Source: Escherichia phage muut
Sequence record: NC_052657.1
Strand: one strand, 5' to 3'
Length of the DNA: 64,000 bases
Below, piece after piece: positions 12,191-25,678 of this stretch; position 1 is the first letter of the stretch; each line of letters opens with the position of its first letter. A model generated the notes under the pieces. That model was not told where the DNA came from. It made no database searches and saw only the letters and a program-made list of their open reading frames with translations. Made by a program: the position numbers and the translations under genes.

Positions 12191-13351
12191 ATGTTTACAG
12201 TATTCGGCAATCAAATCTTCCTGCGTCAGAAATCTGGTACAGATATTGAAGAAATTCCAGCAGGAACTTTTGGTGTAGGTGTTACTCAAAGTGGTGAGTT
12301 CTTCCTGTATCCTAAAAACGATATGGAAGTGCCTTCAGTAACATACGGTGATACTGATGATAAATCAGAACGTATTATCAAAACGTTCCTTAGCCGCAAA
12401 GGTAAAAACACAGGTGTTCTCCTTGAGGGTACGAAAGGTAGCGGTAAAACTTTGCAAGCTAAAATGCTGTCTTCTGCTCTTCGTGAAATGGGTATTCCTA
12501 CTATTTCTATCGGCAGTGCTTTTAATGGCGAAGGTTTTATCAATTTTATGTCTAAAATCACACAACCTGTGATGATTATGATCGATGAATTTGATAAACT
12601 GTATGCTGAAAAAGATGCACAAGATGGTTTGCTTACCCTGTTGGATGGTGTTGGTGGCTACGACAAACTGTTTGTATTGACTAAAAATGATGGTTATGTA
12701 TCAGAATTTTTGCGTAATCGTCCTAGCCGTATTTTCTACAGTTTTAGCTATAAGAAACTACCTAAAGCTACTATGGATGATTATCTGGCTAAAAATCTGG
12801 AGAACAAAGCCTTCTTACCAGATTTTGAAACGCTTTATAATCTCTCCGTGGATTTGAACTTTGATATTGTTCAGTCATTAGTAGAAGAACTTAACCGTTA
12901 CCCTAATGACAAATTCTCTGATGCACTTGCATTGATGGGTATCAGTATTACTGAACACCGCTATGCTGCAAAAGAGGTTAAACTTCTGAAAGTTAACGGT
13001 GTAGATCGTACAGGAGATGTTTCGTCAGATACCGATATTGACGGTATGACAGCACAAGGTTTGTTTAGCGGTAATCGTTATGTTGTAGCTGTAGACCATA
13101 AACTAGGTGAAGAGCATCTTCCTGAAATGGAAGGGATTGTTACCGTAGAAGATAAAGATGAAGAAGGTGACTACTACTGGGGTGTAGACCGTATCTTGCT
13201 AACGTATGATGAAAAACACATTCGTACAATGGGTGGTGACGGTTATCACTTTATGTTCACCGATGATAAAGGTAACAACATTGAAGTTGTTATTAAAAAC
13301 AAAGAACGTAAAAACTACACAGAGTATGTGTTTGGTGGTCGTTCTTACTAA
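12191..13351 (+). CDS. AAA+ family ATPase
   Basis: Walker A GTKGSGKT, Walker B IMIDEFD; 386 aa. Confidence 0.6.
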   Translation: MFTVFGNQIFLRQKSGTDIEEIPAGTFGVGVTQSGEFFLYPKNDMEVPSVTYGDTDDKSERIIKTFLSRKGKNTGVLLEGTKGSGKTLQAKMLSSALREMGIPTISIGSAFNGEGFINFMSKITQPVMIMIDEFDKLYAEKDAQDGLLTLLDGVGGYDKLFVLTKNDGYVSEFLRNRPSRIFYSFSYKKLPKATMDDYLAKNLENKAFLPDFETLYNLSVDLNFDIVQSLVEELNRYPNDKFSDALALMGISITEHRYAAKEVKLLKVNGVDRTGDVSSDTDIDGMTAQGLFSGNRYVVAVDHKLGEEHLPEMEGIVTVEDKDEEGDYYWGVDRILLTYDEKHIRTMGGDGYHFMFTDDKGNNIEVVIKNKERKNYTEYVFGGRSY

Positions 13352-13358
13352 GTGATAA

Positions 13359-13384
13359 AAGGAGGCGAAAGCCTCCTTTATTTA
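13359..13384 (+). terminator. rho-independent terminator (GAAA tetraloop)
   Basis: GGAGGC-GAAA-GCCTCC then TTTATTT. Confidence 0.6.
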
Positions 13385-13385
13385 T

Positions 13386-13589
13386 ATGGAGGGTATTATG
13401 GATCATTATTTTGTTTTTAAAGATAAAGTTGATACCGCAGGTGGTCACGTTGCTAAAAATGATCGTGACATTAAAGAAGTATTAGGAGATCTGATTAACA
13501 TTTTAGAACAAAAAGAGTTGCTTTTAGATAAGGATATTGCTAGACTTCTGGGTGTGGGGATAAGTGACATACAAAGATTACCATTCTAA
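13386..13589 (+). CDS. small hypothetical protein
   Basis: 67 aa ORF; alternative ATG at 13398. Confidence 0.4.
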   Translation: MEGIMDHYFVFKDKVDTAGGHVAKNDRDIKEVLGDLINILEQKELLLDKDIARLLGVGISDIQRLPF

Positions 13590-13600
13590 AGGGGAAGAAA

Positions 13601-13756
13601 ATGCTTACAGATGATGAATATAAAGCTATCCAGGAAAAACTAACGGAGCTTGAAATTCTTGCTGTCAATATTAAAGATCAATCACATGCTGGAAAGTTAC
13701 TACAGCAAGAGATCAATAAAATTAAGCAGATGATATTCTTTTGGACGGAGGATTAA
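13601..13756 (+). CDS. small coiled-coil protein (51 aa, not in ORF track)
   Basis: ATG 13601 after GGGGAAG RBS; MLTDDEYKAIQEKLTELEILAVNIKDQSHAGKLLQQEINKIKQMIFFWTED. Confidence 0.4.
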   Translation: MLTDDEYKAIQEKLTELEILAVNIKDQSHAGKLLQQEINKIKQMIFFWTED

Positions 13757-13758
13757 AA

Positions 13759-14415
13759 ATGACTGTTAAGCATATTTCTTTTGATGTATGGAATACTCTT
13801 ATTACTGCTAATCCTTTGTATGCAGAAGAACGCAACAAGGTTATTGCCGAGTATGCCTCTTGTTCTGAGGTAGAAGCAGCTACCGTATATAAAGAGGTAA
13901 AAACTCTCCTGGATTTAAAAGCAGAAAAAGGTATTTGTGGAACATCTAGGCATGCTTGGGAAACACTTTCTGCTCATTTGAACATTGATCTTGATAAGGT
14001 GGATGGGTTAAAAAGAGACTGTTTAGCAATGTTTATAAAACATCCTCCAACATTAAACCCTGAACTTTGCAAGAAGTTGGAAGAGCTAAGTTCAACCTAT
14101 TCTTTGAGTATTAAAAGCAATACTAATTTTGTACCTGGTAGTTTTTTAGCTGTATATTCTGGCTTGACAAAATTACCATTCGACTTTATGCATTTTTCTG
14201 ACGAGTTTTGCTTGTGTAAACCAGATCCTAGGTTTTTTAAACTCTCTTTTGATGAAATGGTAACGTTTGATCTCGCACCAGAGGAGATCTTACACGTTGG
14301 AGATAGTTTGATCTATGATGGAAAAGCTGTTGACATAGGGATGAAGTTCTGTCATATTATTAATCCAGAAGACTTGTTGGCTAAACTTAAAAAAGAGGAA
14401 CTTATTAATGCGTAA
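13759..14415 (+). CDS. HAD-like hydrolase (variant motif I)
   Basis: ISFDVWNTLI (motif I with W in place of the second Asp), HVGDSLIYDGKA (motif IV); ATG 13759 with GGAGGA RBS; 3' end overlaps next gene. Confidence 0.45.
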   Translation: MTVKHISFDVWNTLITANPLYAEERNKVIAEYASCSEVEAATVYKEVKTLLDLKAEKGICGTSRHAWETLSAHLNIDLDKVDGLKRDCLAMFIKHPPTLNPELCKKLEELSSTYSLSIKSNTNFVPGSFLAVYSGLTKLPFDFMHFSDEFCLCKPDPRFFKLSFDEMVTFDLAPEEILHVGDSLIYDGKAVDIGMKFCHIINPEDLLAKLKKEELINA

Positions 14416-15265
14416 TCAAATTCAACATTTTGCTAATACTTTTACTAACCTGAAGGAAGCAAAATTTAACATTGCAGATTATTCCAAGCTAAAGTTTGGT
14501 AGTAACCAGGCAGCAAAAAGAATGGGGCGCATTCTGGCTGAAAGTTTCTTTTCCAAGTATGAAGAACGACTGGTAAATGAAAGTTTTGTTGTTATTCCAT
14601 CTCCATATAACTATGTGAAAAATGCAGCTACAGTGTTATCTGAACATTTTGTAGATCACCTCAACTACCTAATCTCTATCAAAGGAGGTAAAGCAGTGGA
14701 GTGGGATATCGTTCATCGTAAAGTGAGCTATATCAATGATTATGGATTTCTTAGCAAAGAAGATCGTAAGGCTTTGATCGATGGTGACACTTTCTCTATC
14801 AATCGTGATTTCTGGGGTAATAAAACTCTGATTTTCATTGATGATGTTAATATTACAGGAACGCACGAAGAAAAACTTATTGAAATTTTAGACAAAGAAG
14901 GTGTTGAAAACGATACGTTTTTCCTGTACTTTGCAAAGTATGAAGGTACAGAAGCCAATACCGAAGCTGCACTTAACTTCAACTATATCAATAACCTGGC
15001 AGCTTTTATTAAAATGATTAAACAAGAAACTGATGCTAAATGTTTGGTTCGTCCTATTAAGTATCTAATGAGTCAAAGCGAAGTTGATTTTAAAATTGCA
15101 CTTTCACAGCTTCCTTTGTATTATGTAGAACAACTGTTCTTTGGTTGCCTTGCAGAAGGCTACAATAACATTGAAAAATATAAAGAGAACTTTGATTTCC
15201 TACGTCAATTTTTTGAAAGCAACATTATCAACAAATCTAATGTTAAAGGGGATTATTATGTCTAA
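14408..15265 (+). CDS. phosphoribosyltransferase-like protein
   Basis: LIFIDDVNITGTH matches the type I PRTase PRPP-binding loop; overlaps both neighbours. Confidence 0.5.
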   Translation: MRNQIQHFANTFTNLKEAKFNIADYSKLKFGSNQAAKRMGRILAESFFSKYEERLVNESFVVIPSPYNYVKNAATVLSEHFVDHLNYLISIKGGKAVEWDIVHRKVSYINDYGFLSKEDRKALIDGDTFSINRDFWGNKTLIFIDDVNITGTHEEKLIEILDKEGVENDTFFLYFAKYEGTEANTEAALNFNYINNLAAFIKMIKQETDAKCLVRPIKYLMSQSEVDFKIALSQLPLYYVEQLFFGCLAEGYNNIEKYKENFDFLRQFFESNIINKSNVKGDYYV

Positions 15266-15974
15266 TAAAGTAATGACTTTCGGAGATCCTATCACCAATA
15301 TTACAGAAAAAGATTTTGGGCGTGTAGCAACAGATAAAGATGGTGTCTTAAGAATTCGTGTACAAGGTATTACAGCACAGGATGAATATGCTGTGTATGT
15401 TTCAGGTCTTAACTATATTGATGATCGCATTACACAAAACTTTGCACTGATCGGTGGTGTAGAGAAAATGTATTGGGAAGATGAAATTGTAACAAGTTAT
15501 CCGGCAGGTATCATTGAGGTATACGGTGATCTTTTAGCAGCAGCCGAGAGAGGCGATATAGACGCTATAGCACACTGCTGTAACTGTTTTTGCACTATGG
15601 GTAGTGGTATTGCACCAAAAATTAAAAGCAAGTGGCCTGGTGCGTTTAAAGCAGATTGTGCCACTAAACGTGGTGATTATAAAAAATTAGGTACGTTTAC
15701 CAAATATATAGAAAACAATTTGACAATTTATAATTTATATGGACAATATGGTTATAGTCGTCGTGAGGAAGGTAAGCGTGACCTGAATTATGAAGCTATC
15801 TACAATGCGTTAGATAGTATGGGAGACGATGTTGTATCTTCAGGCGGTAAAATTGTAGGTTTACCAATGCTTGGTTGTGGTTTGGCTGGAGGTTCTTGGA
15901 GTATTGTAAAACTTATGATCGAAGAAACTCTAGTAAACAAAGGTTTAAATGTAATTGTTTACAAACTGAAATAA
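15258..15974 (+). CDS. macro domain protein with an N-terminal extension of about 90 aa
   Basis: DAIAHCCNCFCTMGSGIAPKI and VGLPMLGCGLAGGS align with macro-domain blocks (DVIVNAAN..GGGGVDGAIH; FPAISTGVYG); ATG 15258 overlaps upstream stop. Confidence 0.5.
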   Translation: MSNKVMTFGDPITNITEKDFGRVATDKDGVLRIRVQGITAQDEYAVYVSGLNYIDDRITQNFALIGGVEKMYWEDEIVTSYPAGIIEVYGDLLAAAERGDIDAIAHCCNCFCTMGSGIAPKIKSKWPGAFKADCATKRGDYKKLGTFTKYIENNLTIYNLYGQYGYSRREEGKRDLNYEAIYNALDSMGDDVVSSGGKIVGLPMLGCGLAGGSWSIVKLMIEETLVNKGLNVIVYKLK

Positions 15975-15983
15975 GGAGAAAGT

Positions 15984-16190
15984 ATGGCAGGTGTTTTAGC
16001 AGTATTAGGTTGTTTTATTGTTGTGTTTTTGATTGTGTTAATCCCTAGTTGGCTACTGCTTTTAGCATACAACTATATGATTGACATTATCGGCTTAGAC
16101 TGGCATCATGTTCCTGTAACGTTTTGGAGTGTAGTCTGTGTGACGTTCATTCTTGCGGTACTTCGTGGTATCTTTCAATCTAACAAATAA
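15984..16190 (+). CDS. small membrane protein
   Basis: 68 aa, two hydrophobic helices. Confidence 0.5.
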   Translation: MAGVLAVLGCFIVVFLIVLIPSWLLLLAYNYMIDIIGLDWHHVPVTFWSVVCVTFILAVLRGIFQSNK

Positions 16191-16204
16191 GAGAGGATTT
16201 TTAT

Positions 16205-16453
16205 ATGCGTAAAGTAAATGTTGAAGTGCTTGAAAAATTTAGAAACACTCGTGATTGTACTATCGGCAAGGTTTACGAGGCTATTCTCCTTGAAGATGGA
16301 GATCAAGTTCCTGCCCCGTATCACGCCTTTAATGGTCAAATCAGCAAAGTGGAAGGTGGTCTTGCTATTTGCTTTATTGATGACGTAGGTGATGCTGTAG
16401 CTTTCCCTGTCATTAACAAAGAAGATAAACTTAAAATTACAGAACTGAACTAG
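16205..16453 (+). CDS. hypothetical protein
   Basis: 82 aa ORF. Confidence 0.45.
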   Translation: MRKVNVEVLEKFRNTRDCTIGKVYEAILLEDGDQVPAPYHAFNGQISKVEGGLAICFIDDVGDAVAFPVINKEDKLKITELN

Positions 16454-16483
16454 TTGACTTTCTTTAAAAACAGTTTATAGTAT
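16454..16483 (+). promoter_or_regulatory. promoter candidate (TTGACTTT -35, TAGTAT -10) upstream of terC-like gene
   Basis: TTGACT 16454-16459, 18 nt spacer, TAGTAT 16478-16483. Confidence 0.35.
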
Positions 16484-16493
16484 AAGACATAGA

Positions 16494-16512
16494 GCGGAGG
16501 ATTGTCCTCCGC
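16494..16512 (+). promoter_or_regulatory. 5' leader hairpin that includes an anti-SD-like CCUCC
   Basis: GCGGAGGA-TTG-TCCTCCGC, no U tract, 18 nt before ATG 16531. Confidence 0.3.
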
Positions 16513-16530
16513 ATTAAAGAGGAGAAAAGA

Positions 16531-17508
16531 ATGCAACTGGGTTTCCCAATTATTGATGTGGTTGTTTTAGTGGGTATTTTAGTCTTGTCGATTTGTATTG
16601 ACTTCTTTGGACACAGAGAAAACAAAGAAATTTCATTTAAATCTGCAATTGGCTGGTCAATTTTCTGGATTGGGGTATCATTAGCCTACTATGGTTTTGT
16701 ATACTTCCAACACGGTGCTGATTTTGCGAGCTTGTTCTTGAGTGGGTATGTGTTGGAGAAATCTCTTTCTGTAGATAACTTAGTAGTATTTGTAGCAGTA
16801 TTCGCAAGTTTTGGTATTAAAAGCACACACTTGCAGCACAAGATTCTACTTTGGGGTATTGCAGGTGCGATTGTCTTCCGAGGTGTGTTTGTAGCAGTAG
16901 GCACTTACTTGTTGAGTTTGGGCTGGTATGTTAATATCTTCTTCGGTGCTGTCATCCTTTTCTGTGCGGCTAAAATGGTATTCGCTGGAGATAATGATGC
17001 AGAAGTTGATTACTCTAAACACTGGGCTACTCGCATTGTTCGTAAGCTGTTCCCTGTATCTGATCAGATGGATGGTGAGAAGTTCTTCACAATCAAAAAT
17101 GGTGTTCGTGTAGCAACTCCGGCTCTGGTTTGTGTGTTTGTAATGGAAATGGTTGACGTAATCTTTGCAGTAGACTCTGTTCCAGCAGTAATTGCAGTGA
17201 CACAAGAACCTCTGCTTGTATTTTCTTCAATGCTGTGTGCAATTTTAGGTCTACGTGCTCTGTTCTTTGTACTTAGTGTTGCACTGAAATATTTGGTTCA
17301 TCTGGAGAAAGCAGTTATCGTAGTCCTGGTGTTTGTGGGTGTAAAACTGATGTATCATCCGTTTGCAGAAACTCTGCACGCAAAAGTGAGTTTCCTACCA
17401 GCACACATTGATCCGACGATCAGTATGTATATTGTGTTAGGTACTCTTGGGTTGGGTGTTATTGCAAGTTTAATCTTCCCTGAAAAAGAAGACCAGACTG
17501 TTGCTTAA
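16531..17508 (+). CDS. terC: TerC family integral membrane protein
   Basis: Multi-pass membrane protein with both TerC signature repeats: EKSLSVDNLVVFV and EMVDVIFAVDSVPAVIAVT. Confidence 0.8.
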   Translation: MQLGFPIIDVVVLVGILVLSICIDFFGHRENKEISFKSAIGWSIFWIGVSLAYYGFVYFQHGADFASLFLSGYVLEKSLSVDNLVVFVAVFASFGIKSTHLQHKILLWGIAGAIVFRGVFVAVGTYLLSLGWYVNIFFGAVILFCAAKMVFAGDNDAEVDYSKHWATRIVRKLFPVSDQMDGEKFFTIKNGVRVATPALVCVFVMEMVDVIFAVDSVPAVIAVTQEPLLVFSSMLCAILGLRALFFVLSVALKYLVHLEKAVIVVLVFVGVKLMYHPFAETLHAKVSFLPAHIDPTISMYIVLGTLGLGVIASLIFPEKEDQTVA

Positions 17509-17513
17509 TTCAT

Positions 17514-17536
17514 TAAGCCCCTTCGGGGGCTTTGTT
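17514..17536 (+). terminator. rho-independent terminator (UUCG tetraloop)
   Basis: AAGCCCC-TTCG-GGGGCTT then TGTT. Confidence 0.65.
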
Positions 17537-17547
17537 GAGGTGATCTG

Positions 17548-17754
17548 ATGGTGGTTTTACGTGTTCTTTGGATTCTGTTTGAAAATATTTGTTTTGCTCT
17601 AGGGTTGTTTTGTTTGATTTTTATCTTGACAACATATATTGATAACCATACAATTACTATCAACAGGAACGGAGAACAGATGTATTGTTTCTCTAGGGAT
17701 TTTAAAAATTGTGTTGAGACTTTAAATGAGAGGGTTACAAATGAAAAACATTAA
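17548..17754 (+). CDS. small membrane protein
   Basis: 68 aa, hydrophobic N-terminus. Confidence 0.35.
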   Translation: MVVLRVLWILFENICFALGLFCLIFILTTYIDNHTITINRNGEQMYCFSRDFKNCVETLNERVTNEKH

Positions 17755-18331
17755 ATCTTTTATTGTTGCAGTTGTTTTAGGTAGTGTATTGCTGGTAGGT
17801 TGTGATGATTCTGAAAATGTACAAAATCAACGTTACCAGCAAACACCAAATCAGATGGTAGATGAGCAATATGTAAATCAACCTGCACCTCAAGTTGTTC
17901 AAGCAGCACCTGCACAACCTTCAACAGTTGTTGTTCAAGGAGGCGGCAGTGGTTCTTCTGGCGTAGGTGAGTTCGCTACAGGTATGCTTCTTGGTCATAT
18001 GTTGAGTGGTAATAGTGGCGGTGGTGGTTATAGAGATGGCGGTAGCAATACAACAATTATCAATAACAACGCTGCTCCTACAACTAATAGTAAAGCATAT
18101 ACAACACAAAAGCATAGTTTTTATGATAAACAAGGAAATACATATACAACCACTAAACAAAACACAATTAAGCAGCAAAGTGTACAAACGTATTCACGCC
18201 CATCAACAACAAAAGTGAATAGTAATTACTCTGCTCGTAAGTCTTACTCAAGCCCTATTAGCTCTTATAGTAAGTCTTCGAAAAGTTATTCTTCGTCGAA
18301 ACGTAGTTTTAGTAGCTCACGTCGTCGTTAA
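17741..18331 (+). CDS. lipoprotein with glycine-zipper segment and Ser/Tyr-rich tail
   Basis: Signal peptide with lipobox LLVGC; GEFATGMLLGHMLSGNSGGGG; tail SYSSPISSYSKSSKSYSSSKRSFSSSRRR. Confidence 0.6.
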   Translation: MKNIKSFIVAVVLGSVLLVGCDDSENVQNQRYQQTPNQMVDEQYVNQPAPQVVQAAPAQPSTVVVQGGGSGSSGVGEFATGMLLGHMLSGNSGGGGYRDGGSNTTIINNNAAPTTNSKAYTTQKHSFYDKQGNTYTTTKQNTIKQQSVQTYSRPSTTKVNSNYSARKSYSSPISSYSKSSKSYSSSKRSFSSSRRR

Positions 18332-18366
18332 TAATTTAATACAGATTAAATAAGAAGGAGAAACAG

Positions 18367-19218
18367 ATGAAACTAGAAGTTGGTAAAGTATATCGCCTGG
18401 AAGGTTGGATCTTTAATCAAGAAATTCTTGAGAAGAATAAAGATGGTTTTGAGTTTGTTGGTACTACCAAGGAAAGTATGCACAATGACGAATACTGTAA
18501 ATTCGTTGGTAAAAATACAGGTCAAGAACAATTTTGCTTTAAGAGCGCAATCGGTGATTATGCTTCTGTAATGCCAACACCAGAAAAAACTCCGAAGCAA
18601 TATACTGTCTTTGGTGTAAAACTTGAAGAACTTGTAGAACACCCACGTTTTGAAGAGTTCAAGGTTGCTGCAATGCGCAAGCATTCTGAAATTAAAATAC
18701 ATAATTTGTTTGATTTAGAAGATCGGTTTGATATCTTTATGTATGATCGCAGGGAAAAGCATTTTGATGCAACGACTTCAAAATTTGCTGCAACAGAGGA
18801 TATTAAAATCCTTGATGTTGATACCTTTCTTCACAATGTATCGTTTGTATTCATTCCTAAATACAAAAAACGTAGTGATCATAAACGTGTGAAAGGAACT
18901 CCTCGTAAAAAACGTACTGTAAACAAAGCAACTTTGCACTTCACTTCTGGTGATAAGTATACTCTCAAAGGGTTTGAAAGTGTTTTGTATGATGCTGGAA
19001 CGGGTAATATCAAGTTTATCATTAAGGCAACCTACAAAGGTACGGTATTGCACGAAGAGGCTGTTACACTACCTGTATTCGATATCTCTCGTGTTGAGGT
19101 ACGGGGTGTTAAAGAGTCCTTCGATCTGGATTTCTTAACCACTAATGCTACTGGTTATGTTAATCTGGAAGCAGATGGAGCCTTTATTACTACAAATTAT
19201 TTAGATATGTTTGTTTAA
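18367..19218 (+). CDS. hypothetical protein
   Basis: 283 aa ORF, AGGAGA RBS. Confidence 0.55.
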   Translation: MKLEVGKVYRLEGWIFNQEILEKNKDGFEFVGTTKESMHNDEYCKFVGKNTGQEQFCFKSAIGDYASVMPTPEKTPKQYTVFGVKLEELVEHPRFEEFKVAAMRKHSEIKIHNLFDLEDRFDIFMYDRREKHFDATTSKFAATEDIKILDVDTFLHNVSFVFIPKYKKRSDHKRVKGTPRKKRTVNKATLHFTSGDKYTLKGFESVLYDAGTGNIKFIIKATYKGTVLHEEAVTLPVFDISRVEVRGVKESFDLDFLTTNATGYVNLEADGAFITTNYLDMFV

Positions 19219-19286
19219 TACTTAATTTGTGTTATGATGGTGGTACAGAGGTATCACCATCTACTAAAGAATATGGAGGAAATTGA

Positions 19287-20390
19287 ATGTCCAGTCCTTT
19301 TATCAGTGCCGTAAAAAGCAAACCGTCTGAAATGAGTGTATTCACGGCAACAACAGAAAAAAGTAAGTCTTTGTTTGCTCCAAGTGCTATGGATGCAAGC
19401 CCTGTATATGCCCCTGCTGTTGCACGACCTGTACAAATGCTGCCTCCAATGTCTCGTGAAGAGATTGAACAAGTTGGTGCTGATGCAGGACTTACTCTTC
19501 GTAACCTTAATGCTGAAGTGCTTAAACACCAGCGTTCATCTCAGGGGGATGAAATGAGTGAACGTTTAACTGCACTTATTAAGCAAGCAAAGCAACTTGA
19601 TCCTAACTCTATTAAACAATCTAAAGGCTTAGGTAAACTAGTTAAGAAAGTATTAGGTATGAAAGAAGATTTGTTTGGTGAATTTGACACCATCAATAAT
19701 CGTATTGAAGGTTTGGTAAAGACACTACAAACAGACTTGAAAAAAGAAGAAGATTCTTTACGATATCTGCAACGTTTAGAAGAGGCTATTGCAAAATATG
19801 CTCTTAGCTTAAACAGGGATATAGAGCTTCTAACAGCTACTTATGAAAAAGAAGAAGTTCGCCTTAATACACTACCTGAAAATGAAGTAGAAGAGCGTCA
19901 ACGTACTCGTGATACTATGGATCTGCTTGAAATTCGTATTGCAGACCTGAAAGCCTTGCGTTTACTGTGTGTTCAGATGGGGCCACGTGTACAAAGTATG
20001 CAGAAAGTATCTGCAAGTTTGATGCGATCAGCCCGTAATATTGTGAATAATGTTATCCCTGCTTACTCTGCAAACTTTTCTATGTATATTGAAAGTCTAC
20101 GCCAGAAGAAAGCAGCCGATACACAGAACAATGTGCTGAATGAATTTAATGCTGCTATTGCAATGGGTAGTGATCTGGCTGCACAAAACCAAATTGAAGC
20201 TACACAACTTGCTAATCGTCAAGTATTGGATATTGAAACATTACGTCGCGATCAAGAAAACTTAGTTAAAATGTTGGAAGAAACTAACCGAATCAACACT
20301 GAAGCCCGTGCTGCGCGTATTGATTACATTCAAGAAGTGCAATCTCTTGAAGATGGTATGATTCAAACTGTTAAACGTGGTCTACTTTAA
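19287..20390 (+). CDS. TelA/KlaA-like toxic anion resistance family protein
   Basis: 367 aa coiled-coil protein; C-terminal LDIETLRRDQENLVKMLEETNRINTEARAARIDYIQEVQ resembles the TelA block. Confidence 0.5.
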   Translation: MSSPFISAVKSKPSEMSVFTATTEKSKSLFAPSAMDASPVYAPAVARPVQMLPPMSREEIEQVGADAGLTLRNLNAEVLKHQRSSQGDEMSERLTALIKQAKQLDPNSIKQSKGLGKLVKKVLGMKEDLFGEFDTINNRIEGLVKTLQTDLKKEEDSLRYLQRLEEAIAKYALSLNRDIELLTATYEKEEVRLNTLPENEVEERQRTRDTMDLLEIRIADLKALRLLCVQMGPRVQSMQKVSASLMRSARNIVNNVIPAYSANFSMYIESLRQKKAADTQNNVLNEFNAAIAMGSDLAAQNQIEATQLANRQVLDIETLRRDQENLVKMLEETNRINTEARAARIDYIQEVQSLEDGMIQTVKRGLL

Positions 20391-20403
20391 GGAGAAATAT
20401 ATT

Positions 20404-20610
20404 ATGAATATTAAAATTTACAAACTGTCTGGTTCTATGATTGCTGTTCAGTATGACAATGAAGATCGTTATGTTCTCCTCCAGGATGCTTGGTTAGATG
20501 ATCCTAATGTATTCACTGTCCTGCGAGAACTACGCTCTGTCTATACCTATTCTTCTAAAGATGGTTTTGATAGTTCAACGATGGAATTGGTAAAAGAGGA
20601 GAATGTGTAA
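20404..20610 (+). CDS. hypothetical protein
   Basis: In-frame ATG 20404 after AAGGAGA RBS. Confidence 0.45.
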   Translation: MNIKIYKLSGSMIAVQYDNEDRYVLLQDAWLDDPNVFTVLRELRSVYTYSSKDGFDSSTMELVKEENV

Positions 20611-20810
20611 TGAGTAAAGATATTCACTTAACTCGTGAAGAATTGCAAACCATTATGGAAGATGCTTTCATTGATGGTTGGAAACAAGGTCAAGAATCAG
20701 ATTGGTATGATGCCGAAGATTTTTTGTATTATCATATGACTGCACCTGTAGACGAGCAAACACACTCTGAAACAACTTTGGCTTTAATTGATCTTAAGGC
20801 TGGTGTATAA
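20610..20810 (+). CDS. hypothetical acidic protein
   Basis: 66 aa ORF. Confidence 0.45.
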   Translation: MSKDIHLTREELQTIMEDAFIDGWKQGQESDWYDAEDFLYYHMTAPVDEQTHSETTLALIDLKAGV

Positions 20811-21373
20811 TGGGGTGTTTTAGTTTCTTGTGCAAAGAGTCTGGTAATGCTGCTCTTTCTACCTCTTTCGATGGCTCTCCTTGCTACCTATTTCTTTTGA
20901 AAGGTGGTAAGGTTGTCGAAGAGATGTATGGGAATTATGATAGCTATGGTAGTGTTTTCTCTAACGAAGAAGATAAACATGGCAATCGTAAAAGATTCAA
21001 GTGGTCTATGCCTTGGGAAGAAGTTTGTAATTTGATGTTCTCTTCCGATCTTGGAGATGGGATTGCTCTGGTATTAGAAGAACACTTTACAGGTGAGATC
21101 CCAACAGAAAGATCTGAAGAAGACCCTAACCAGGGTTGGGGTGATGGAGAAGAAGATCCAGATTGCTTCTTCAGCACTGAAAATAATAAATTTAAACGTG
21201 TTGACAATCCTTACCACAAAGTGCATAATACTTGCATTGAGACAGAAGAAGACTCAAAGCTAGAAATTGAAGATGATTTAGTTGTAACTATCTCTTTAAA
21301 CGATTTGCAAAAAATCACTAGAGAGGCTTTCTATTTAGGCTTGAGAGCAGGTAAAGGAGAAGACAGTGCTTAA
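20810..21373 (+). CDS. hypothetical protein
   Basis: 187 aa ORF. Confidence 0.5.
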   Translation: MGCFSFLCKESGNAALSTSFDGSPCYLFLLKGGKVVEEMYGNYDSYGSVFSNEEDKHGNRKRFKWSMPWEEVCNLMFSSDLGDGIALVLEEHFTGEIPTERSEEDPNQGWGDGEEDPDCFFSTENNKFKRVDNPYHKVHNTCIETEEDSKLEIEDDLVVTISLNDLQKITREAFYLGLRAGKGEDSA

Positions 21374-21635
21374 ATTTAATATCAAAGACGACAAATCAGA
21401 TGAACCTAAATGTTTTGGAGAACTTGACACAGGTGATACATTCGTATATTATGTTGCCTATCGAGATGCTGGTTTAGATACGTTCAGAAACTTAGTGTTT
21501 ATTAAGGTTAATACAAACCAAGCAATGTGTCTTAACGGTTCACAAAGAGGTCAACTTAACTGTATTTTATATGATACAGAAGTGGTAGAAGTGGATTTAG
21601 AAGTTACTAACATTACAGTCAGAAAGGAGAAATAA
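21366..21635 (+). CDS. hypothetical protein
   Basis: 89 aa ORF. Confidence 0.45.
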   Translation: MLKFNIKDDKSDEPKCFGELDTGDTFVYYVAYRDAGLDTFRNLVFIKVNTNQAMCLNGSQRGQLNCILYDTEVVEVDLEVTNITVRKEK

Positions 21636-21636
21636 T

Positions 21637-22431
21637 ATGTCCAATAAAATCAGTCTTAAAAAACGTCAAGAAACTCTTACTGTATCCCTGCGTAAGAAAA
21701 AGATTAACGATGTTGTTCTTCGTGTAGGTAGCGCCTTAGATATTTCGGGTAGTATGTGTGAGCTGTATCGTGATGGCACTGTTAGCGATTTTGTAGGTAA
21801 ACTGCTGCCGTTTGGTATGAAGTTTGATGATAATGCACAGATTGACATGTGGGCTTTCAATAGTTCTTCTTTTGAACTGCCTCCTGCAACGGCTGATGTG
21901 TATGATGATTATGTCGGCTCTTGCATGTCTAATGTTTGCATCAACGGTGGTACTGCTTATGCTCCAGTAATGCAAGAGATCTATGATACATACTTCGGTA
22001 GTGTACCTATGAAAAATATTACACGCGAAGTCGTTGAGTATGAAGAAGTTCCGGCTAAAGGTTTCCTTGCTAAACTAACTGGTAAAAAAGAACTTGTAGA
22101 AGTAACACGTACTGTTGTAGAACAGGTTGTAGATACTGATGCACAAGTTGATCGTACTCCTGCAATGATTTTCTTCCAAACTGACGGGGAGAACATGGAT
22201 ACTTCAGCAGTACGTAGCTTACTGAACAAACACCGCAATACGCCTGTTTACTGGTTTATGGTTGGTGTAGGTAATGCAAACTTTAAATTCCTGAAAGACT
22301 TGGCAAAAGAATACGATAATGTTGATTTTATCGGTATTGCAGATTTGTCCTTGTCTGACGAAGAACTTTACGATAAACTGCTATCTGAAGAGTTTGGTGA
22401 GTGGGTTAAAAAATTTGGAGCAAAAGCGTAA
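21637..22431 (+). CDS. vWA domain protein (TerY-like) with TerD-like N-terminal tag
   Basis: MIDAS DISGSM, GGTAYAP, FFQTDGE; N-terminus ISLKK..LTVSLRK parallels the TerD start. Confidence 0.55.
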   Translation: MSNKISLKKRQETLTVSLRKKKINDVVLRVGSALDISGSMCELYRDGTVSDFVGKLLPFGMKFDDNAQIDMWAFNSSSFELPPATADVYDDYVGSCMSNVCINGGTAYAPVMQEIYDTYFGSVPMKNITREVVEYEEVPAKGFLAKLTGKKELVEVTRTVVEQVVDTDAQVDRTPAMIFFQTDGENMDTSAVRSLLNKHRNTPVYWFMVGVGNANFKFLKDLAKEYDNVDFIGIADLSLSDEELYDKLLSEEFGEWVKKFGAKA

Positions 22432-22438
22432 AAAACGC

Positions 22439-22466
22439 TTGACTTTGTAGAAAAGATTAGTAAAAT
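22439..22466 (+). promoter_or_regulatory. promoter candidate (TTGACTTT -35, TAAAAT -10) upstream of terD-like gene
   Basis: TTGACT 22439-22444, 16 nt spacer, TAAAAT 22461-22466. Confidence 0.4.
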
Positions 22467-22503
22467 AGACAACGTAAATTAACAACAAAGGAGATAATAA
22501 ATT

Positions 22504-23100
22504 ATGACTCAGAAAATTTCCCTGAAAAAAGGTTCTAGCGAAAAAGTTTCTCTGAAAAAGATTGCACCAGCACTGAAACGCATTCGTCTGGAATTCTCTT
22601 GGAAATCTAACGAAAAACTGGATCTGGATGTTAGTGCTCTGATTTGCCGACACAATGCATCTGGTCTGCCGGAACTGTTGTCTCCTCGTCACCTGGTGTG
22701 CTACGCGCAGAAATTTGATCCTGAACGTTCTACTTTTGCAGGTGAAGATGTTCGTGATGGTGTAGGACAGATGGAGCAGATTGATGTTACACTGGATAAT
22801 ATCTCTGCTGAAGCACAGGAAATTGCATTCGTAATTACTATTGATGACGAAACGGGTAAGAAACGCCTTGGTCACGCTACCGAAGGTTTCCTTAAAATCT
22901 TCGATGATGAACGTAATGTTGAACTGCTGGACTTTGACTTCTTGGCTCCAGAACTTGCAGGTAACACCATTTGCCACGTTGCCTCCCTGGTGCGAGAAGA
23001 TAGCGAATGGAAACTGAAAGCATATGGTGTGGGTAAAGCTGGGCTTGACATTTACGATGTAGTTAAAGCGTTTGGCGCTGGCGACGATTGGTTCGAGTAA
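22504..23100 (+). CDS. terD: TerD family protein
   Basis: ISLKKGSSEKVSLKK, LDLDVSALI, EIAFVITID, EWKLKAYGVGKAGL align with TerD blocks (VSLSKGGNVSLSK, FDLDASAFL, KIIFVVTIH, EWKFRAVGQGYAGGL). Confidence 0.8.
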   Translation: MTQKISLKKGSSEKVSLKKIAPALKRIRLEFSWKSNEKLDLDVSALICRHNASGLPELLSPRHLVCYAQKFDPERSTFAGEDVRDGVGQMEQIDVTLDNISAEAQEIAFVITIDDETGKKRLGHATEGFLKIFDDERNVELLDFDFLAPELAGNTICHVASLVREDSEWKLKAYGVGKAGLDIYDVVKAFGAGDDWFE

Positions 23101-23107
23101 TAAATCA

Positions 23108-23132
23108 TAGCGCCCTTCGGGGCGCATATTTT
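23108..23132 (+). terminator. rho-independent terminator (UUCG tetraloop)
   Basis: GCGCCC-TTCG-GGGCGC then ATATTTT. Confidence 0.65.
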
Positions 23133-23152
23133 AAATAAAAGAGGAGAAAACA

Positions 23153-23755
23153 ATGGGTATTACTTTAGAAGGTCAAAAACTTATTCGTAGCGGCAATTTT
23201 CTTGTGGATGTTGACAACAATCAAGATTATGCTGTAGAAGTTAGTGATGTACTGTTTGATGCTTTGCAGTCTGGTTTCAATTTTGAAGTTTATGAAGTAA
23301 TCCGTGGAACTAAACTCAGAGAAACCCTTGGATCAACTAGTGATGTTTATTCTGCGATCTGGCAATATTTCGGGTTAATGGATGGTAAGACATACCTTAC
23401 TGATAGTTATTCTGAAGATGTTGTTTATCTTGATATGGAAGAGTTTCGTCGTCTGTTCAAAAGTGAAGAAAATGAAGAAGAGGGTGAACTTTTTGAAGGA
23501 ATTATTCTCGAAGGTAATGTTGAAATTGTGTACAAAGCAGGAAAAACATTCCACCTACGCGAAAACGGTAAAGCGAAAGTTGATTTTGTAAACAAGACAG
23601 TGACAACCGAACATAATTATCTTAAAGATGGTCAACCAGCTTTTGAACGTGTAAAAATTAAATTTAAAGTGTTGTCTGCACTAGTTACGGATCAAGAACG
23701 TATTGATTTTGTAGAAGATGGTGTAGTAACTCATACGAAGGTTTACAATATCTAA
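23153..23755 (+). CDS. hypothetical protein
   Basis: 200 aa ORF, GAGGAGA RBS. Confidence 0.55.
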   Translation: MGITLEGQKLIRSGNFLVDVDNNQDYAVEVSDVLFDALQSGFNFEVYEVIRGTKLRETLGSTSDVYSAIWQYFGLMDGKTYLTDSYSEDVVYLDMEEFRRLFKSEENEEEGELFEGIILEGNVEIVYKAGKTFHLRENGKAKVDFVNKTVTTEHNYLKDGQPAFERVKIKFKVLSALVTDQERIDFVEDGVVTHTKVYNI

Positions 23756-23786
23756 CAGAGTGTAAGAGGGGGATAATCCTCCTCCA

Positions 23787-23815
23787 CTTGCAAAACAGCC
23801 TCTTCTGTGTTACAA
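23787..23815 (+). promoter_or_regulatory. promoter candidate (TTGCAA-17-TACAAT)
   Basis: TTGCAA 23787-23792, 17 nt spacer, TACAAT 23810-23815. Confidence 0.4.
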
Positions 23816-23847
23816 TAAAAGTTCGTTTAACAAAATAGGAGGCAAGT

Positions 23848-24357: not shown

Positions 24358-24367
24358 GGAGATATAG

Positions 24368-25048: not shown

Positions 25049-25105
25049 GTAAAACCATTTGGACTTTTTAGTCTAAAAATGCTAAAGTAATAATACGGAG
25101 GGAGT

Positions 25106-25669: not shown

Positions 25670-25678
25670 GGAGTTATT

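What the first reader, a model, noticed from the sequence alone, without database searches (positions are those of the whole stretch)
13759..15974. Translationally coupled HAD / phosphoribosyltransferase / macro-domain trio next to the Ter-like genes
Three ORFs overlap by 8 nt each (ATG inside the upstream stop region), implying co-translation. They are a HAD-like hydrolase with a variant motif I (DVWNT), a PRTase-like protein (LIFIDDVNITGTH) and a macro-domain protein with a roughly 90 aa N-terminal extension. Ter operons in bacteria are reported to be linked to PRTase, HAD phosphoesterase and related enzymes predicted to make a nucleoside-like metabolite; the macro domain, which acts on ADP-ribose derivatives, is an unusual addition. 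The set could make or process a ribosylated or ADP-ribose-like small molecule, or rebuild NAD+ during infection to counter NAD-depleting defences.
Basis: partly seen in the sequence, partly recalled or inferred. Interest (0 to 1): 0.8.

Follow-up and report, generated by a model that had tools for sequence, protein, structure and literature searches.

The report
Phage Ter-operon enzyme pair plus macrodomain
In a phi92-like coliphage, a HAD hydrolase and a ComF-like phosphoribosyltransferase form an inseparable pair heading a phage-borne Ter stress-response operon, and the macrodomain gene after them looks like a separately acquired ADP-ribose-removing counter-defence gene, not a third step of one pathway.

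Summary
Three co-oriented genes (HAD 13759-14415, PRTase_3 14408-15265, N-domain+macro 15258-15974) overlap by 8 nt each, in a window about 100% identical to Justusliebigvirus phage ESCO32.

HAD and PRTase_3 are an obligate pair: the same 155 phage records, HAD directly upstream in 30/30 loci, natural HAD::PRTase_3 fusions, and first position in bacterial Ter operons. The HAD has an invariant Trp in place of the Asp+2 general acid. Their product is unknown; the best guess is a PRPP-derived nucleoside-like metabolite.

The macrodomain is different. Homologues occur in about 3,000 phage records but follow PRTase_3 only in Stephanstirmvirinae, and never in bacterial Ter operons. It is an SCO6735/TARG1-type enzyme. 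It is 38% identical to the macro inside a Vibrio-phage NARP1-AP operon (ADPR-1''-phosphate phosphatase) and 31% to T4 Tk.4/AdfM (anti-DarTG2).

Its "N-terminal extension" is the N-domain of a MazG-like gene that sits between PRTase and macro in Klebsiella/Citrobacter relatives. The phage already has NARP1 (Adps+Namat) about 82 kb away. Overlapping junctions are common here (17/51).

Moderate interest: a new variant of known kinds.

The parts
13358..13379 (+). Terminator-like hairpin (AAAGGAGGCGAAAGCCTCCTTT followed by a T-rich tail) after the upstream AAA-ATPase gene. It probably marks the 5' boundary of the transcription unit that holds the trio.
   Evidence: The consensus scan is at chance level overall, so this is an inference.
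13386..13589 (+). Small ORF (67 aa) of unknown function in the same tightly packed unit.
13601..13756 (+). Small ORF (51 aa). Its stop lies 2 nt before the HAD start codon.
13759..14415 (+). HAD-superfamily hydrolase, subfamily IA with a C1 cap. Motifs: I = D9-V-W11-N-T13, II = S120, III = K154, IV = G181-D182...D187. Trp replaces the Asp+2 general acid. It is the obligate partner of PRTase_3.
14408..15265 (+). PRTase_3 (PF15610, ComF-like, Ter-associated phosphoribosyltransferase family). It has the PRPP loop LIFIDDVNITGTHE and family-invariant K29, R120, K139 and R215.
15258..15509 (+). N-terminal domain of about 84 aa of the macro protein. It is homologous to the N-domain of the N-domain+MazG-like pyrophosphatase gene that sits between PRTase and macro in Klebsiella/Citrobacter relatives, so it is a fusion remnant.
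15510..15974 (+). Macrodomain of the ALC1/TARG1-like class, SCO6735/BT1257 subtype. N109, Q163 and the GCGLAGG loop are conserved. It belongs to phage family phrog_335, which also holds T4 Tk.4/AdfM and NARP1-AP Adpp-type macros.
15984..16190 (+). 68-aa membrane protein, conserved downstream of the macro gene throughout Stephanstirmvirinae.
16205..16453 (+). 82-aa conserved protein of unknown function (phrog_17459).
16531..17508 (+). TerC-family integral membrane protein, preceded by a promoter-like site (16454-16481) and a hairpin (16494-16512).
19287..20390 (+). TelA-family protein.
21637..22431 (+). vWA-TerF-like protein.
22504..23100 (+). TerD-domain protein.

Best explanation
The locus is two things placed side by side in one tightly packed phage transcription unit.

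(1) HAD + PRTase_3 is a self-contained two-enzyme module. It is the same pair that leads compact Ter operons in bacteria (HAD-PRTase_3-TerD-TerD-TelA-TerC).
- Inferred mechanism: PRTase_3 uses PRPP to ribosyl-phosphorylate an unidentified base-like nucleophile. The HAD enzyme then removes a phosphate to give a nucleoside-like metabolite.
- That metabolite is proposed to act with the phage's own TerD/TerC/TelA/vWA membrane-associated complex, for example to remodel the infected cell envelope or to exclude superinfecting phages.
- The HAD lacks the usual Asp+2 general acid (invariant Trp), so its exact chemistry is uncertain.

(2) The N-domain+macro protein is a lineage-specific insertion downstream of the pair.
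- It is an SCO6735/TARG1-type ADP-ribose hydrolase from a very widespread phage family.
- The two characterised phage members of that family are counter-defence enzymes: T4 Tk.4/AdfM against DarTG2 (removes ADP-ribose from thymidine in DNA) and the NARP1-AP phosphatase Adpp (ADPR-1''-phosphate to ADPR).
- It most likely works independently of the pair, in one or both of those roles.
- Its N-terminal 84 aa are a remnant of a neighbouring N-domain+MazG gene. The MazG part was lost by deletion and fusion.

Shown here: gene structure, family membership, co-occurrence, fusions and synteny. Inferred: every catalytic activity and every biological role.
For: The pair is a unit:
- HAD and PRTase_3 homologues each occur in 155 phage records with an identical genus breakdown.
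- HAD lies directly upstream on the same strand in 30/30 loci surveyed.
- Independent HAD::PRTase_3 fusion proteins exist: P0354, P0380, P0399, P0455 and P0477, plus P0376.

Ter linkage:
- Bacterial operons are HAD-PRTase_3-TerD-TerD-TelA-DUF8226-TerC and HAD-PRTase_3-TerD-TerD-vWA x3-PP2C-kinase-TerC.
- A Hymenobacter plasmid carries the pair next to TerD x3, vWA, PP2C and a kinase.
- Most phage loci have TerD, vWA, TelA or TerC within 10 kb.
- The window itself has TerC, TelA, vWA-TerF and TerD.
- The literature already proposes PRTase+HAD as the Ter signal or metabolite synthesis module, including in phages (PMC7824862).

Catalytic motifs: the PRPP loop and invariant basic residues in PRTase_3, and HAD motifs I-IV with invariant D, T, S, K and D/D.

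The macro is separable:
- 2,976 phage records carry homologues.
- It is adjacent to PRTase_3 only in Stephanstirmvirinae-type loci and is absent from the bacterial operons.

Macro type and relatives:
- PDB profile hits are BT1257 3e-22, TARG1 2e-21, SCO6735 2e-19, DarG 3e-12 and Poa1p 3e-10.
- The only NCBIfam and PADLOC hits are DarG.
- The SCO6735 functional residues Asn27, Gln85 and the Gly loop are conserved.
- It is 31% identical (E=2e-17) to T4 Tk.4/AdfM.
- It is 38% identical (E=1e-32) to the macro embedded in Adps-macro-Namat of Vibrio phage River4, which is in the same genus as Gary, whose Adpp was assayed.

Fusion origin of the N-domain.
Against: - No biochemical or genetic data exist for any of the three proteins.
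- PRTase_3 has no solved relative detectable by sequence. Only the PRPP loop matches HGPRT, at E=0.14. Its fold, base pocket and even its catalytic competence are therefore untested, and structure prediction could not be run.
- The invariant Trp at Asp+2 argues against a textbook phosphatase step.
- The macro, or N-domain+MazG and then macro, always follows PRTase_3 within the subfamily and is translationally coupled. This is also what a functional link would look like.
- In other lineages the genes next to the pair include an NMNAT-like gene, Nampt, Nudix and a DSP-like phosphatase. This hints that the pair's chemistry may touch NAD or ADP-ribose after all.
- Rhizobium phages and plasmids carry the pair with no detectable Ter genes nearby, so Ter linkage is frequent but not obligatory.
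Confidence: 0.55

Rival explanations
1. One integrated three-enzyme pathway. PRTase_3, HAD and the macro protein act in sequence on one ribosylated or ADP-ribose-like small molecule. For example, PRTase_3 could use ADPR-pyrophosphate made by the phage's Adps instead of PRPP, with the macro and HAD enzymes trimming phosphates.
For: - The three genes have tight 8-nt overlaps.
- The order PRTase then (N-domain+MazG) then macro is conserved across Stephanstirmvirinae, with N-domain+MazG and macro also overlapping by 14 nt.
- The N-domain is fused to MazG in some relatives and to macro here, as expected of a shared adaptor.
- NAD- or ADPR-handling genes lie next to the pair in other lineages: NMNAT-like directly downstream in L031, NadM-like plus Nampt in L030, and Nudix in a Rhizobium phage.
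- The phage encodes Adps.
Against: - The macro is absent next to the pair in every lineage outside one phage subfamily and in all bacterial operons.
- No HAD::PRTase_3 fusion examined carries a macro domain.
- The macro family is about 20 times more widespread than the pair.
- Synteny within one subfamily is a single evolutionary event.
- Overlapping junctions are common in this genome, 17 of 51.
Confidence: 0.15
2. Reading of the macro's role within the best explanation: the macro protein is chiefly the trans-encoded Adpp of this phage's NARP1. It converts ADPR-1''-phosphate, made by RES-type NAD+ phosphorylases such as aRES, into ADPR so that Adps and Namat can rebuild NAD+.
For: - Its closest characterised-type relative is the NARP1-embedded macro of a Thalassavirus: 38% identity, E=1e-32.
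- Adpp activity has been shown for the Gary enzyme.
- The ESCO32 genome has Adps and Namat homologues (35% and 40% identity to Bas63 NARP1) with no macro next to them.
- aRES occurs in E. coli.
Against: - It is not within two genes of NARP1, which is how NARP1-AP is defined. It lies about 82 kb away.
- By profile it is closer to TARG1, SCO6735 and BT1257 than to Poa1p.
- The residues needed for Adpp activity are not available to compare.
Confidence: 0.35
3. Reading of the macro's role within the best explanation: the macro protein is chiefly an AdfM-type anti-DarTG2 factor. It removes ADP-ribose from thymidine in phage ssDNA and so complements the NADAR (AdfN) that this genus uses against DarTG1.
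For: - It is homologous to T4 Tk.4/AdfM (function).
- DarG is its only hit in NCBIfam and PADLOC.
- It is of the SCO6735 subtype, which cleaves dT-ADPr on DNA, and the Asn, Gln and Gly-loop residues are conserved.
- Bas60-62 encode an active anti-DarTG1 NADAR that does not counter DarTG2.
Against: - Identity to AdfM (31%) is lower than to the NARP1-AP macro (38%).
- SCO6735 Val25 is Cys here.
- No DarTG2 plating data exist for this genus.
Confidence: 0.35
4. The HAD-PRTase_3 pair has nothing to do with Ter proteins in the phage. It is instead a nucleotide or NAD-precursor salvage or detoxification pair, for example one that makes or destroys a pyridine or pyrimidine ribotide.
For: - The pair occurs without nearby Ter genes in Rhizobium phages and plasmids, Caulobacter phages and several metagenomic phages.
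- The HAD's nearest named families are non-canonical pyrimidine nucleotidases and ribitylamino-uracil phosphatase, all below cut-off.
- The pair lies near nrdD/nrdG and NAD-salvage genes.
Against: - In bacteria the pair is the first two genes of Ter operons.
- In most phage lineages TerD or vWA follows it directly.
- The Pfam family was defined from Ter contexts.
Confidence: 0.12
5. PRTase_3 is not a working transferase. Like ComF-type proteins, it could be a PRTase-fold binding protein (for a nucleotide or a nucleic acid), with the HAD protein as a partner rather than the next enzyme.
For: - The family is labelled ComF-like.
- No solved relative exists and no activity is known.
- The HAD lacks the Asp+2 catalytic residue.
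Against: - The PRPP-loop acidic pair and the TG(T/S) motif are invariant across 35 diverse members, along with several invariant Lys and Arg residues. That pattern is expected under selection for catalysis.
- The HAD keeps its nucleophile and its metal ligands.
Confidence: 0.08

Closest known systems
Bacterial compact Ter operons led by HAD + PRTase_3 (Ter-associated 'nucleoside-like metabolite' module; Anantharaman, Iyer & Aravind 2012, recalled from my own knowledge and as summarised in PMC7824862)
   Same: Same two families, in the same order and usually overlapping, followed by TerD, TelA, vWA and TerC. The HAD motif I has the same invariant Trp.
   Different: The phage locus has extra genes between the pair and the Ter genes: N-domain+macro, a 68-aa membrane protein and an 82-aa protein. 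It lacks the ATP-grasp, TIM-barrel lyase, TerB and TerY-kinase-PP2C parts of the large enterobacterial ter clusters. No enterobacterial ter plasmid carries a detectable homologue of this PRTase.
Phage-borne Ter systems noted by Iyer et al. 2021 (jumbo phages; Acinetobacter phage ME3 with PRTase+HAD) and Klebsiella phage phiKp34
   Same: A lytic phage carries TerC, TerD, TelA and vWA-TerF, here together with the PRTase+HAD module. The proposed role is superinfection exclusion or stress tolerance.
   Different: This is a 147-kb non-jumbo coliphage. The macro insertion and the N-domain fusion are not described in those papers.
T4 Tk.4 / AdfM (anti-DarTG2 macrodomain; bioRxiv 10.1101/2025.11.20.689424)
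   Same: Same phage macro family: 31% identity, E=2e-17. Both resemble the DarG macrodomain.
   Different: Tk.4 is a stand-alone 155-aa protein in a different genomic context, with a variant Gly loop (GAGIGKG versus GCGLAGG). The window protein has an extra 84-aa N-domain. No DarTG2 test exists for it.
NARP1-AP phosphatase Adpp (Vibrio phage Gary; bioRxiv 10.64898/2026.01.28.702374) and its River4 counterpart gp177
   Same: 38% identity, E=1e-32, to River4 gp177, which sits between Adps and Namat. The window's phage also has Adps and Namat.
   Different: The window macro is about 82 kb from NARP1 and is embedded after a Ter-type PRTase instead. Its activity is untested.
SCO6735 / BT1257 / TARG1 (ALC1-like macrodomain hydrolases; PDB 5e3b, 2fg1, 4j5r)
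   Same: These are the best solved relatives. The window protein shares the SCO6735-type active site (Asn, Gln, Gly-rich loop) and a long basic mobile loop.
   Different: It lacks the TARG1 Lys84/Asp125 dyad (Gln163 and Ala210 instead). SCO6735 Val25 is Cys. It is phage-encoded and carries an added N-domain.
PDB 2om6 (Pyrococcus horikoshii HAD, 'probable phosphoserine phosphatase')
   Same: It is the only solved HAD with a clear match (E=1.9e-8) and has the identical motif I, FDVWNTL.
   Different: It is an archaeal protein of untested function. No PRTase_3 link is known for it.

Membership tests
HAD superfamily (subfamily IA phosphatase-type) | Motif I DxDx(T/V): the nucleophile Asp plus the Asp+2 general acid/base | tested here: not met
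   The motif is D9-V-W11-N-T13. The nucleophile Asp and the Thr are present, but Asp+2 is Trp. This Trp is invariant in all 11 PRTase_3-linked HADs aligned and is also present in PDB 2om6. The protein is therefore a superfamily member but not a canonical phosphatase motif.
HAD superfamily (subfamily IA phosphatase-type) | Motif II (Ser/Thr), motif III (Lys) and motif IV (acidic metal ligands), with a C1 cap between motifs I and II | tested here: met
   S120-N121, K154 and G181-D182...D187 are invariant. An insert of about 105 aa lies between motif I and motif II. Pfam PF00702 scores 27.9 bits against a cut-off of 26.4.
HAD superfamily (subfamily IA phosphatase-type) | Mg2+-dependent phosphomonoesterase activity | not testable with these tools
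   This needs an enzyme assay.
PRTase_3 (PF15610, Ter-associated ComF-like PRTase) | Profile match above the curated cut-off | tested here: met
   143.5 bits against a cut-off of 28.7, E=1.1e-41, over residues 16-265.
PRTase_3 (PF15610, Ter-associated ComF-like PRTase) | Type I PRPP-binding loop: a hydrophobic run, two acidic residues, then TG(T/S) | tested here: met
   The loop is L-I-F-I-D145-D146-V-N-I-T150-G151-T-H153-E154. D145, D146, T150, G151, H153 and E154 are invariant in 35 sequences.
PRTase_3 (PF15610, Ter-associated ComF-like PRTase) | Type I PRTase fold with a hood or base pocket | not tested
   The structure-prediction server failed on every attempt. Sequence and profile searches of PDB find only the PRPP loop of HGPRT, at E=0.14.
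PRTase_3 (PF15610, Ter-associated ComF-like PRTase) | Genomic linkage to Ter genes and to a HAD partner | tested here: met
   HAD is upstream in 30/30 loci. TerC, TerD, TelA or vWA lie within 10 kb here and in most loci, and the pair leads bacterial Ter operons.
Full Ter biosynthetic module (PRTases + ATP-grasp + TIM-barrel lyase + HAD) | ATP-grasp amidoligase and TIM-barrel C-C lyase present next to PRTase and HAD | tested here: not met
   Pfam scans of all neighbouring ORFs from 12191 to 28282 found none. Only the abbreviated HAD+PRTase_3 form is present.
Macro domain, ALC1/TARG1-like class (SCO6735 subtype) | Macro profile match, conserved Asn and Gln (SCO6735 N27 and Q85) and a Gly-rich phosphate-binding loop | tested here: met
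   PF01661 scores 29 bits against a cut-off of 22. N109, Q163, G206, G208 and G212 are invariant in 25 homologues. PDB profile hits are 2fg1 3e-22, 4j5r 2e-21 and 5e3b 2e-19.
Macro domain, ALC1/TARG1-like class (SCO6735 subtype) | TARG1/DarG catalytic Lys (K84/K80) and TARG1 Asp125 | tested here: not met
   The equivalent positions are Gln163 and Ala210, as in SCO6735.
DarG antitoxin | Full-length match including the C-terminal DarT-binding domain, with an adjacent darT gene | tested here: not met
   Only profile positions 4-147 of 338 match, at 48 bits against a cut-off of 250 (PADLOC). No DarT-like neighbour is present.
AdfM (T4 Tk.4) anti-DarTG2 factor | Homology to Tk.4 | tested here: met
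   31% identity over 135 aa, E=2e-17.
AdfM (T4 Tk.4) anti-DarTG2 factor | Protects the phage from DarTG2 and hydrolyses dT-ADPr on DNA | not testable with these tools
   This needs plaque assays and enzymology.
NARP1-AP (Adps + Adpp + Namat) | The macro gene lies within two genes of Adps and Namat | tested here: not met
   Adps and Namat homologues are at 12206-14904 of record OM386658, and the macro is at 97534-98250.
NARP1-AP (Adps + Adpp + Namat) | Homology to a NARP1-embedded macro | tested here: met
   38% identity, E=1e-32, to River4 gp177, which lies between Adps and Namat. River4 and Gary belong to the same genus.
NARP1-AP (Adps + Adpp + Namat) | ADPR-1''-phosphate phosphatase activity | not testable with these tools
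   This needs an enzyme assay.

The most novel reading that the evidence does not exclude
The long-sought 'Ter metabolite' is ADP-ribose- or NAD-related. Under this reading, PRTase_3 uses PRPP or phage-made ADPR-pyrophosphate to attach a non-standard base. The Trp-type HAD and the macro, MazG, Nudix or NMNAT neighbours then tailor or recycle the product, and the resulting nucleoside or dinucleotide acts on the TerD/TerC/TelA complex. The Stephanstirmvirinae locus would then be a genuine multi-enzyme pathway that links NAD-centred counter-defence to the Ter membrane system.
Probability: 0.1. Interest if true: 0.85.

Novelty: new variant of a known kind. Interest (0 to 1): 0.45.

Why it matters
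Ter (tellurite-resistance) gene clusters have been linked to phage, colicin and xenobiotic resistance for decades, yet the metabolite made by their PRTase/HAD enzymes has never been identified.

This analysis shows that HAD+PRTase_3 is a minimal, obligate, sometimes fused two-enzyme unit, and that genetically tractable coliphages (BASEL Bas60-62, phi92) carry it together with a small Ter set. That gives a simple system for finding the metabolite: knockout phage, metabolomics, and two small enzymes to purify.

The macro gene adds a likely counter-defence enzyme against DarTG2 and/or RES-type NAD+ phosphorylases to a phage genus used in host-range and therapy studies. If it works in trans with the phage's NARP1, the set of phages able to resist aRES-type defence is larger than adjacency-based counts suggest.

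Tried and rejected
- **Structure prediction.** Prediction for PRTase_3 (alignment A3) and the macro protein (A2 or the single sequence) was attempted 12 times and the server did not complete. No fold searches could be run, so the PRTase fold, the HAD cap geometry and the N-domain fold remain untested.
- **PDB searches for PRTase_3.** Sequence and profile searches gave only the PRPP loop.
- **N-domain profile against PDB.** It gave only a weak, repeat-summed hit to the mollusc hemocyanin beta-sandwich domain (E=3.7e-4; best single stretch i-E 3.7). I treat this as a hint, not a finding.
- **The 2012 Ter paper.** It is not held by the library, so its content is cited from memory and through citing papers.
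- **A second TerD at 23153-23755.** Rejected: no Pfam TerD hit, and BLAST against the window TerD gives E=0.64.
- **Recent horizontal acquisition of the macro, judged by composition.** There is no GC or GC3 anomaly.
- **Promoter and terminator scan.** Counts equal the shuffled expectation, so only individual hairpins are mentioned, as inference.
- **Bas63 NARP1 being this locus.** Rejected: Bas63 is a Felixounavirus.
- **The NADAR (AdfN-Bas60) gene.** A primer-sequence search found it neither in the window nor in the loci held.
- **Enterobacterial ter plasmids as the source of the pair.** No tblastn hit.

Full report
**What the window is.** The 2.6-kb region is 100% identical to Escherichia phage vB_EcoM_ESCO32 and 98-99% identical to phi92 and to BASEL phages Bas60-62 (Justusliebigvirus, Stephanstirmvirinae). 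GenBank records already call the three genes 'putative HAD-like superfamily protein / putative phosphoribosyltransferase / putative macrodomain protein', or hydrolase / orotate PRTase / phosphatase. The domain-level reading is therefore not new.

**Check of the observation.**
- ORFs 13759-14415, 14408-15265 and 15258-15974 are all on the + strand, and each junction is ATGnnTAA, an 8-nt overlap.
- Each start codon has its own purine-rich ribosome-binding site.
- Pfam confirms HAD (27.9 bits, just above the 26.4 cut-off), PRTase_3 PF15610 (E=1e-41) and Macro (E=1e-6, residues 106-217).
- The flanking genes are nrdD, nrdG and an AAA ATPase upstream. Downstream lie TerC, TelA, vWA-TerF-like and TerD, then a cell-wall hydrolase.
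- The overlap itself is unremarkable. In the annotated 30 kb around the locus, 17 of 51 same-strand junctions overlap, three of them by 8 nt.

**HAD and PRTase_3 are one unit.**
- tblastn of each protein against 50,697 phage records finds 155 records, with the same genus breakdown for both: Escherichia 103, Rhizobium 11, Klebsiella 10, Brevundimonas 7, Campylobacter-labelled 5, Caulobacter 4, and so on.
- In a local BLAST survey of 30 loci carrying a PRTase_3 homologue (GenBank phages, IMG/VR contigs, metagenome contigs, two plasmids), a HAD homologue lies directly upstream on the same strand in all 30, usually overlapping.
- A profile search of 1.84 billion representative proteins finds a small family: 854 clusters at E<=1e-3 and 260 at E<=1e-30. 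At least a dozen of the best 150 are proteins of about 490-545 aa with PRTase_3 at the C-terminus.
- Pfam confirms that P0380, P0399, P0455 and P0477 are HAD::PRTase_3 fusions, and P0376 is PRTase-HAD-PRTase_3. P0354 is another fusion. These are Rosetta-stone evidence for a shared pathway or complex.

**The pair belongs to Ter systems.**
- In bacterial chromosomes the pair is the first two genes of compact operons: HAD-PRTase_3-TerD-TerD-TelA-DUF8226-TerC and HAD-PRTase_3-TerD-TerD-vWA-vWA-vWA/TerY_C-PP2C-kinase-TerC.
- A Hymenobacter plasmid has the pair divergent from TerD x3, vWA x2, PP2C, a kinase and DUF475.
- In most phage lineages TerD or vWA follows the pair directly, or Ter genes lie within a few kb.
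- This matches the published in-silico view that PRTases and HAD phosphoesterases make a nucleoside-like metabolite or signal for the Ter complex, and that some phages carry such systems, perhaps to exclude rival phages (PMC7824862; PMC8386662; PMC8115787; the 2012 source paper could not be read).
- The linkage is frequent but not absolute. Rhizobium phages and plasmids and several metagenomic phages carry the pair with no detectable Ter gene nearby. TerD homologues do not appear for Rhizobium or Brevundimonas phages in the genus summary, where any such hits number at most two records.
- The large enterobacterial ter plasmids hold no detectable homologue of this PRTase. ATP-grasp and TIM-barrel enzymes of the full Ter biosynthetic cluster are absent from the window.

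**Enzyme anatomy.**
- The PRTase_3 alignment of 35 sequences (44-81% identity to the query) keeps an invariant PRPP loop (D145 D146 ... T150 G151. H153 E154) and invariant K29, R120, K139, R215 and others. This pattern fits a working transferase.
- No solved structure is detectably related by sequence beyond that loop, and NCBIfam has no model for the family. The acceptor base cannot be guessed.
- The HAD protein keeps the nucleophile Asp9, Thr13, Ser120, Lys154, and Asp182 and Asp187. The Asp+2 general acid/base is Trp in every PRTase_3-linked HAD aligned, phage or bacterial.
- The only solved relative, P. horikoshii 2om6, has the identical FDVWNTL motif.
It means the phosphatase step is not textbook chemistry. 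Possible reasons are a good leaving group, a different acid, or a long-lived phospho-enzyme (inference).
- The nearest named HAD families are non-canonical pyrimidine nucleotidases and related enzymes, all far below their cut-offs.

**The macro protein is a different kind of passenger.**
- Its macro part (residues ~88-238) has homologues in 2,976 phage records: T4-like, Felixounavirus, rV5-like, Pseudomonas, Vibrio and Bacillus phages, and more. Only 68 of these records cover at least 80% of the query, that is, include the N-terminal extension.
- Among loci with the pair, a macro gene follows PRTase_3 only in Stephanstirmvirinae-type genomes: Justusliebigvirus, Phapecoctavirus, and Klebsiella/Citrobacter relatives. 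One other phage has a macro 6.3 kb away. No bacterial operon has one.
- By sequence it belongs to the ALC1/TARG1-like class, SCO6735/BT1257 subtype. PDB profile E-values are BT1257 3e-22, TARG1 2e-21, SCO6735 2e-19, DarG 3e-12 and Poa1p 3e-10.
- The residues shown to matter in SCO6735 (Asn27, Gln85, Gly126/128) are invariant in the phage family. The TARG1 Lys/Asp dyad is absent.
- DarG is the only NCBIfam and PADLOC hit, covering the macro part only and far below the equivalog cut-off.

**Known functions in this phage macro family.** Two phage members now have experimental functions.
- T4 Tk.4, renamed AdfM, is required for resistance to DarTG2. It is 31% identical to the window protein, E=2e-17.
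- The Poa1p-like macro Adpp inside the Adps-macro-Namat operon of Vibrio phage Gary dephosphorylates ADPR-1''-phosphate, so that NARP1 can overcome the RES-domain defence aRES.
- Vibrio phage River4, in the same genus as Gary, has exactly that operon. Its macro is 38% identical to the window protein, E=1e-32.
- Both roles are plausible here and they do not exclude each other.
- Supporting context for the Adpp role: the ESCO32 genome encodes Adps and Namat homologues (35% and 40% identity to the Bas63 NARP1 enzymes) at 12.2-14.9 kb of the record. This is about 82 kb from the trio and outside the window, with no macro beside them.
- Supporting context for the AdfM role: Bas60-62 encode a NADAR that reverses DarTG1 but not DarTG2.

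**Origin of the 'N-terminal extension'.**
- The first 84 residues match nothing in Pfam. They do align with the N-terminus of a separate ORF that lies between PRTase_3 and the macro gene in Citrobacter phage Tr1, Klebsiella phage phi1_175008 and two IMG/VR relatives. Invariant positions are I12, D19, G21, R22, A24, I33, V48, F62, G66, G67 and W73.
- In those phages that ORF continues into a MazG-like nucleotide pyrophosphatase (phrog_1247, E=5e-21) and overlaps the macro start by 14 nt.
- Justusliebigvirus therefore carries an N-domain::macro fusion created by loss of the MazG part. Phapecoctavirus lost the whole intervening gene.
- The N-domain may be an adaptor, or simply a deletion scar. 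A weak profile hit to the hemocyanin beta-sandwich domain is only a hint of a beta-rich fold.

**Is there nevertheless one pathway?** Some observations keep that reading alive at low probability.
- The insertion sits in a fixed position just after PRTase_3.
- The N-domain is shared by MazG and macro.
- In other lineages, NAD- or ADPR-handling genes lie close to the pair. An NMNAT-like gene is directly downstream, with Nampt 3 kb away, in L031. A NadM-like gene plus Nampt lie 6-7 kb away in L030. A Nudix gene lies 249 nt downstream in a Rhizobium phage, and a DSP-like phosphatase overlaps the PRTase stop in another group.
- Against this, these are large phages that cluster auxiliary metabolic genes. 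The macro association is a single evolutionary event. No fusion or bacterial operon examined includes a macro.

**Transcription context (inference only).** A hairpin plus T-run follows the AAA-ATPase gene at 13358-13379. A promoter-like site (16454-16481) and a hairpin precede terC. This suggests a unit spanning 13386-16453: two small ORFs, HAD, PRTase_3, N-domain+macro, a 68-aa membrane protein and an 82-aa protein. The scan totals are at chance level. [quoted passage not shown]

**Verdict.**
It over-reads the overlaps as evidence for a three-step pathway.
- The best-supported picture is an abbreviated phage Ter operon whose HAD+PRTase_3 module makes an unknown PRPP-derived metabolite. A counter-defence-type ADP-ribose hydrolase, fused to a remnant N-domain, was inserted into that operon in one phage subfamily.
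- The parts are members of known families, and the arrangement is a new variant.
- The main value is as a tractable entry point to the unsolved Ter metabolite, and as a candidate trans-acting Adpp or AdfM.
- All catalytic steps are inferred, and structure-based tests could not be run.

Noticed in passing
window 17726-18331 (+): A 201-aa ORF between terC and telA. It begins with a lipobox-like signal (…VVLGSVLLVGC) and continues as a Q/S/T/N/G-rich low-complexity protein. It may be a lipoprotein component of the phage Ter cluster.
   Followed up: no
window 25106-28282 (+): Four consecutive glycosyltransferase-like genes, one with a weak TET-associated glycosyltransferase hit (PF20691, E=1.6e-4). 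The same genome has rmlABCD-like dTDP-sugar genes (ESCO32 35-38 kb). BASEL authors mention a putative dTDP glycosylation machinery, yet these phages are reported to be restriction-sensitive.
   Followed up: partly
OM386658.1 12206-14904 (outside the window; locus L015): A NARP1-type operon: the Adps homologue is 35% identical and the Namat homologue 40% identical to the Bas63 enzymes. It sits beside the tRNA cluster with no macro gene next to it. The same record also annotates a Sir2-like protein at 49617 and an RNA ligase at 18363.
   Followed up: partly
window 23110-23125: A perfect G+C-rich hairpin, GCGCCCTTCGGGGCGC, lies 10 nt after the terD stop. It is terminator-like on both strands.
   Followed up: no
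window 16454-16512: TTGACT-16-TATAGT promoter-like site followed by the hairpin GCGGAGGATTGTCCTCCGC, immediately upstream of terC. This could be a separate, possibly regulated, terC leader. In E. coli the TerC homologue alx is riboswitch-controlled.
   Followed up: no
window 12191-13351 (+): A 386-aa AAA+ ATPase (phrog_2376) with an uncharacterised C-terminal half lies just upstream of the unit. It is conserved in Justusliebigvirus and Klebsiella relatives but was not detected upstream of the pair in the Phapecoctavirus loci examined.
   Followed up: no
L017 2992-3555; L020 9505-10071; L021 4024-4590: In Klebsiella-type relatives, a 187-188-aa protein joins the novel N-domain to a MazG-like pyrophosphatase. 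It sits between PRTase_3 and the macro gene and overlaps the macro start by 14 nt.
   Followed up: yes
GenBank MG065639, MG065645, MG065650, MG065656: Records labelled 'Campylobacter phage' (host C. jejuni) are 97-100% identical to these coliphages across the locus. They are probably mislabelled or propagated contaminants.
   Followed up: no
L031 10841-11926: In an unrelated 211-kb phage contig, the gene immediately after PRTase_3 encodes a 361-aa protein with a C-terminal NMNAT-type nucleotidyltransferase domain and an unassigned 200-aa N-terminus. Nampt lies 3 kb further downstream.
   Followed up: partly
window about 4794-7568 (+) (L002 5195-7969): A UvrD/Rep-family helicase gene, annotated in BASEL as containing an intein.
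   Followed up: no
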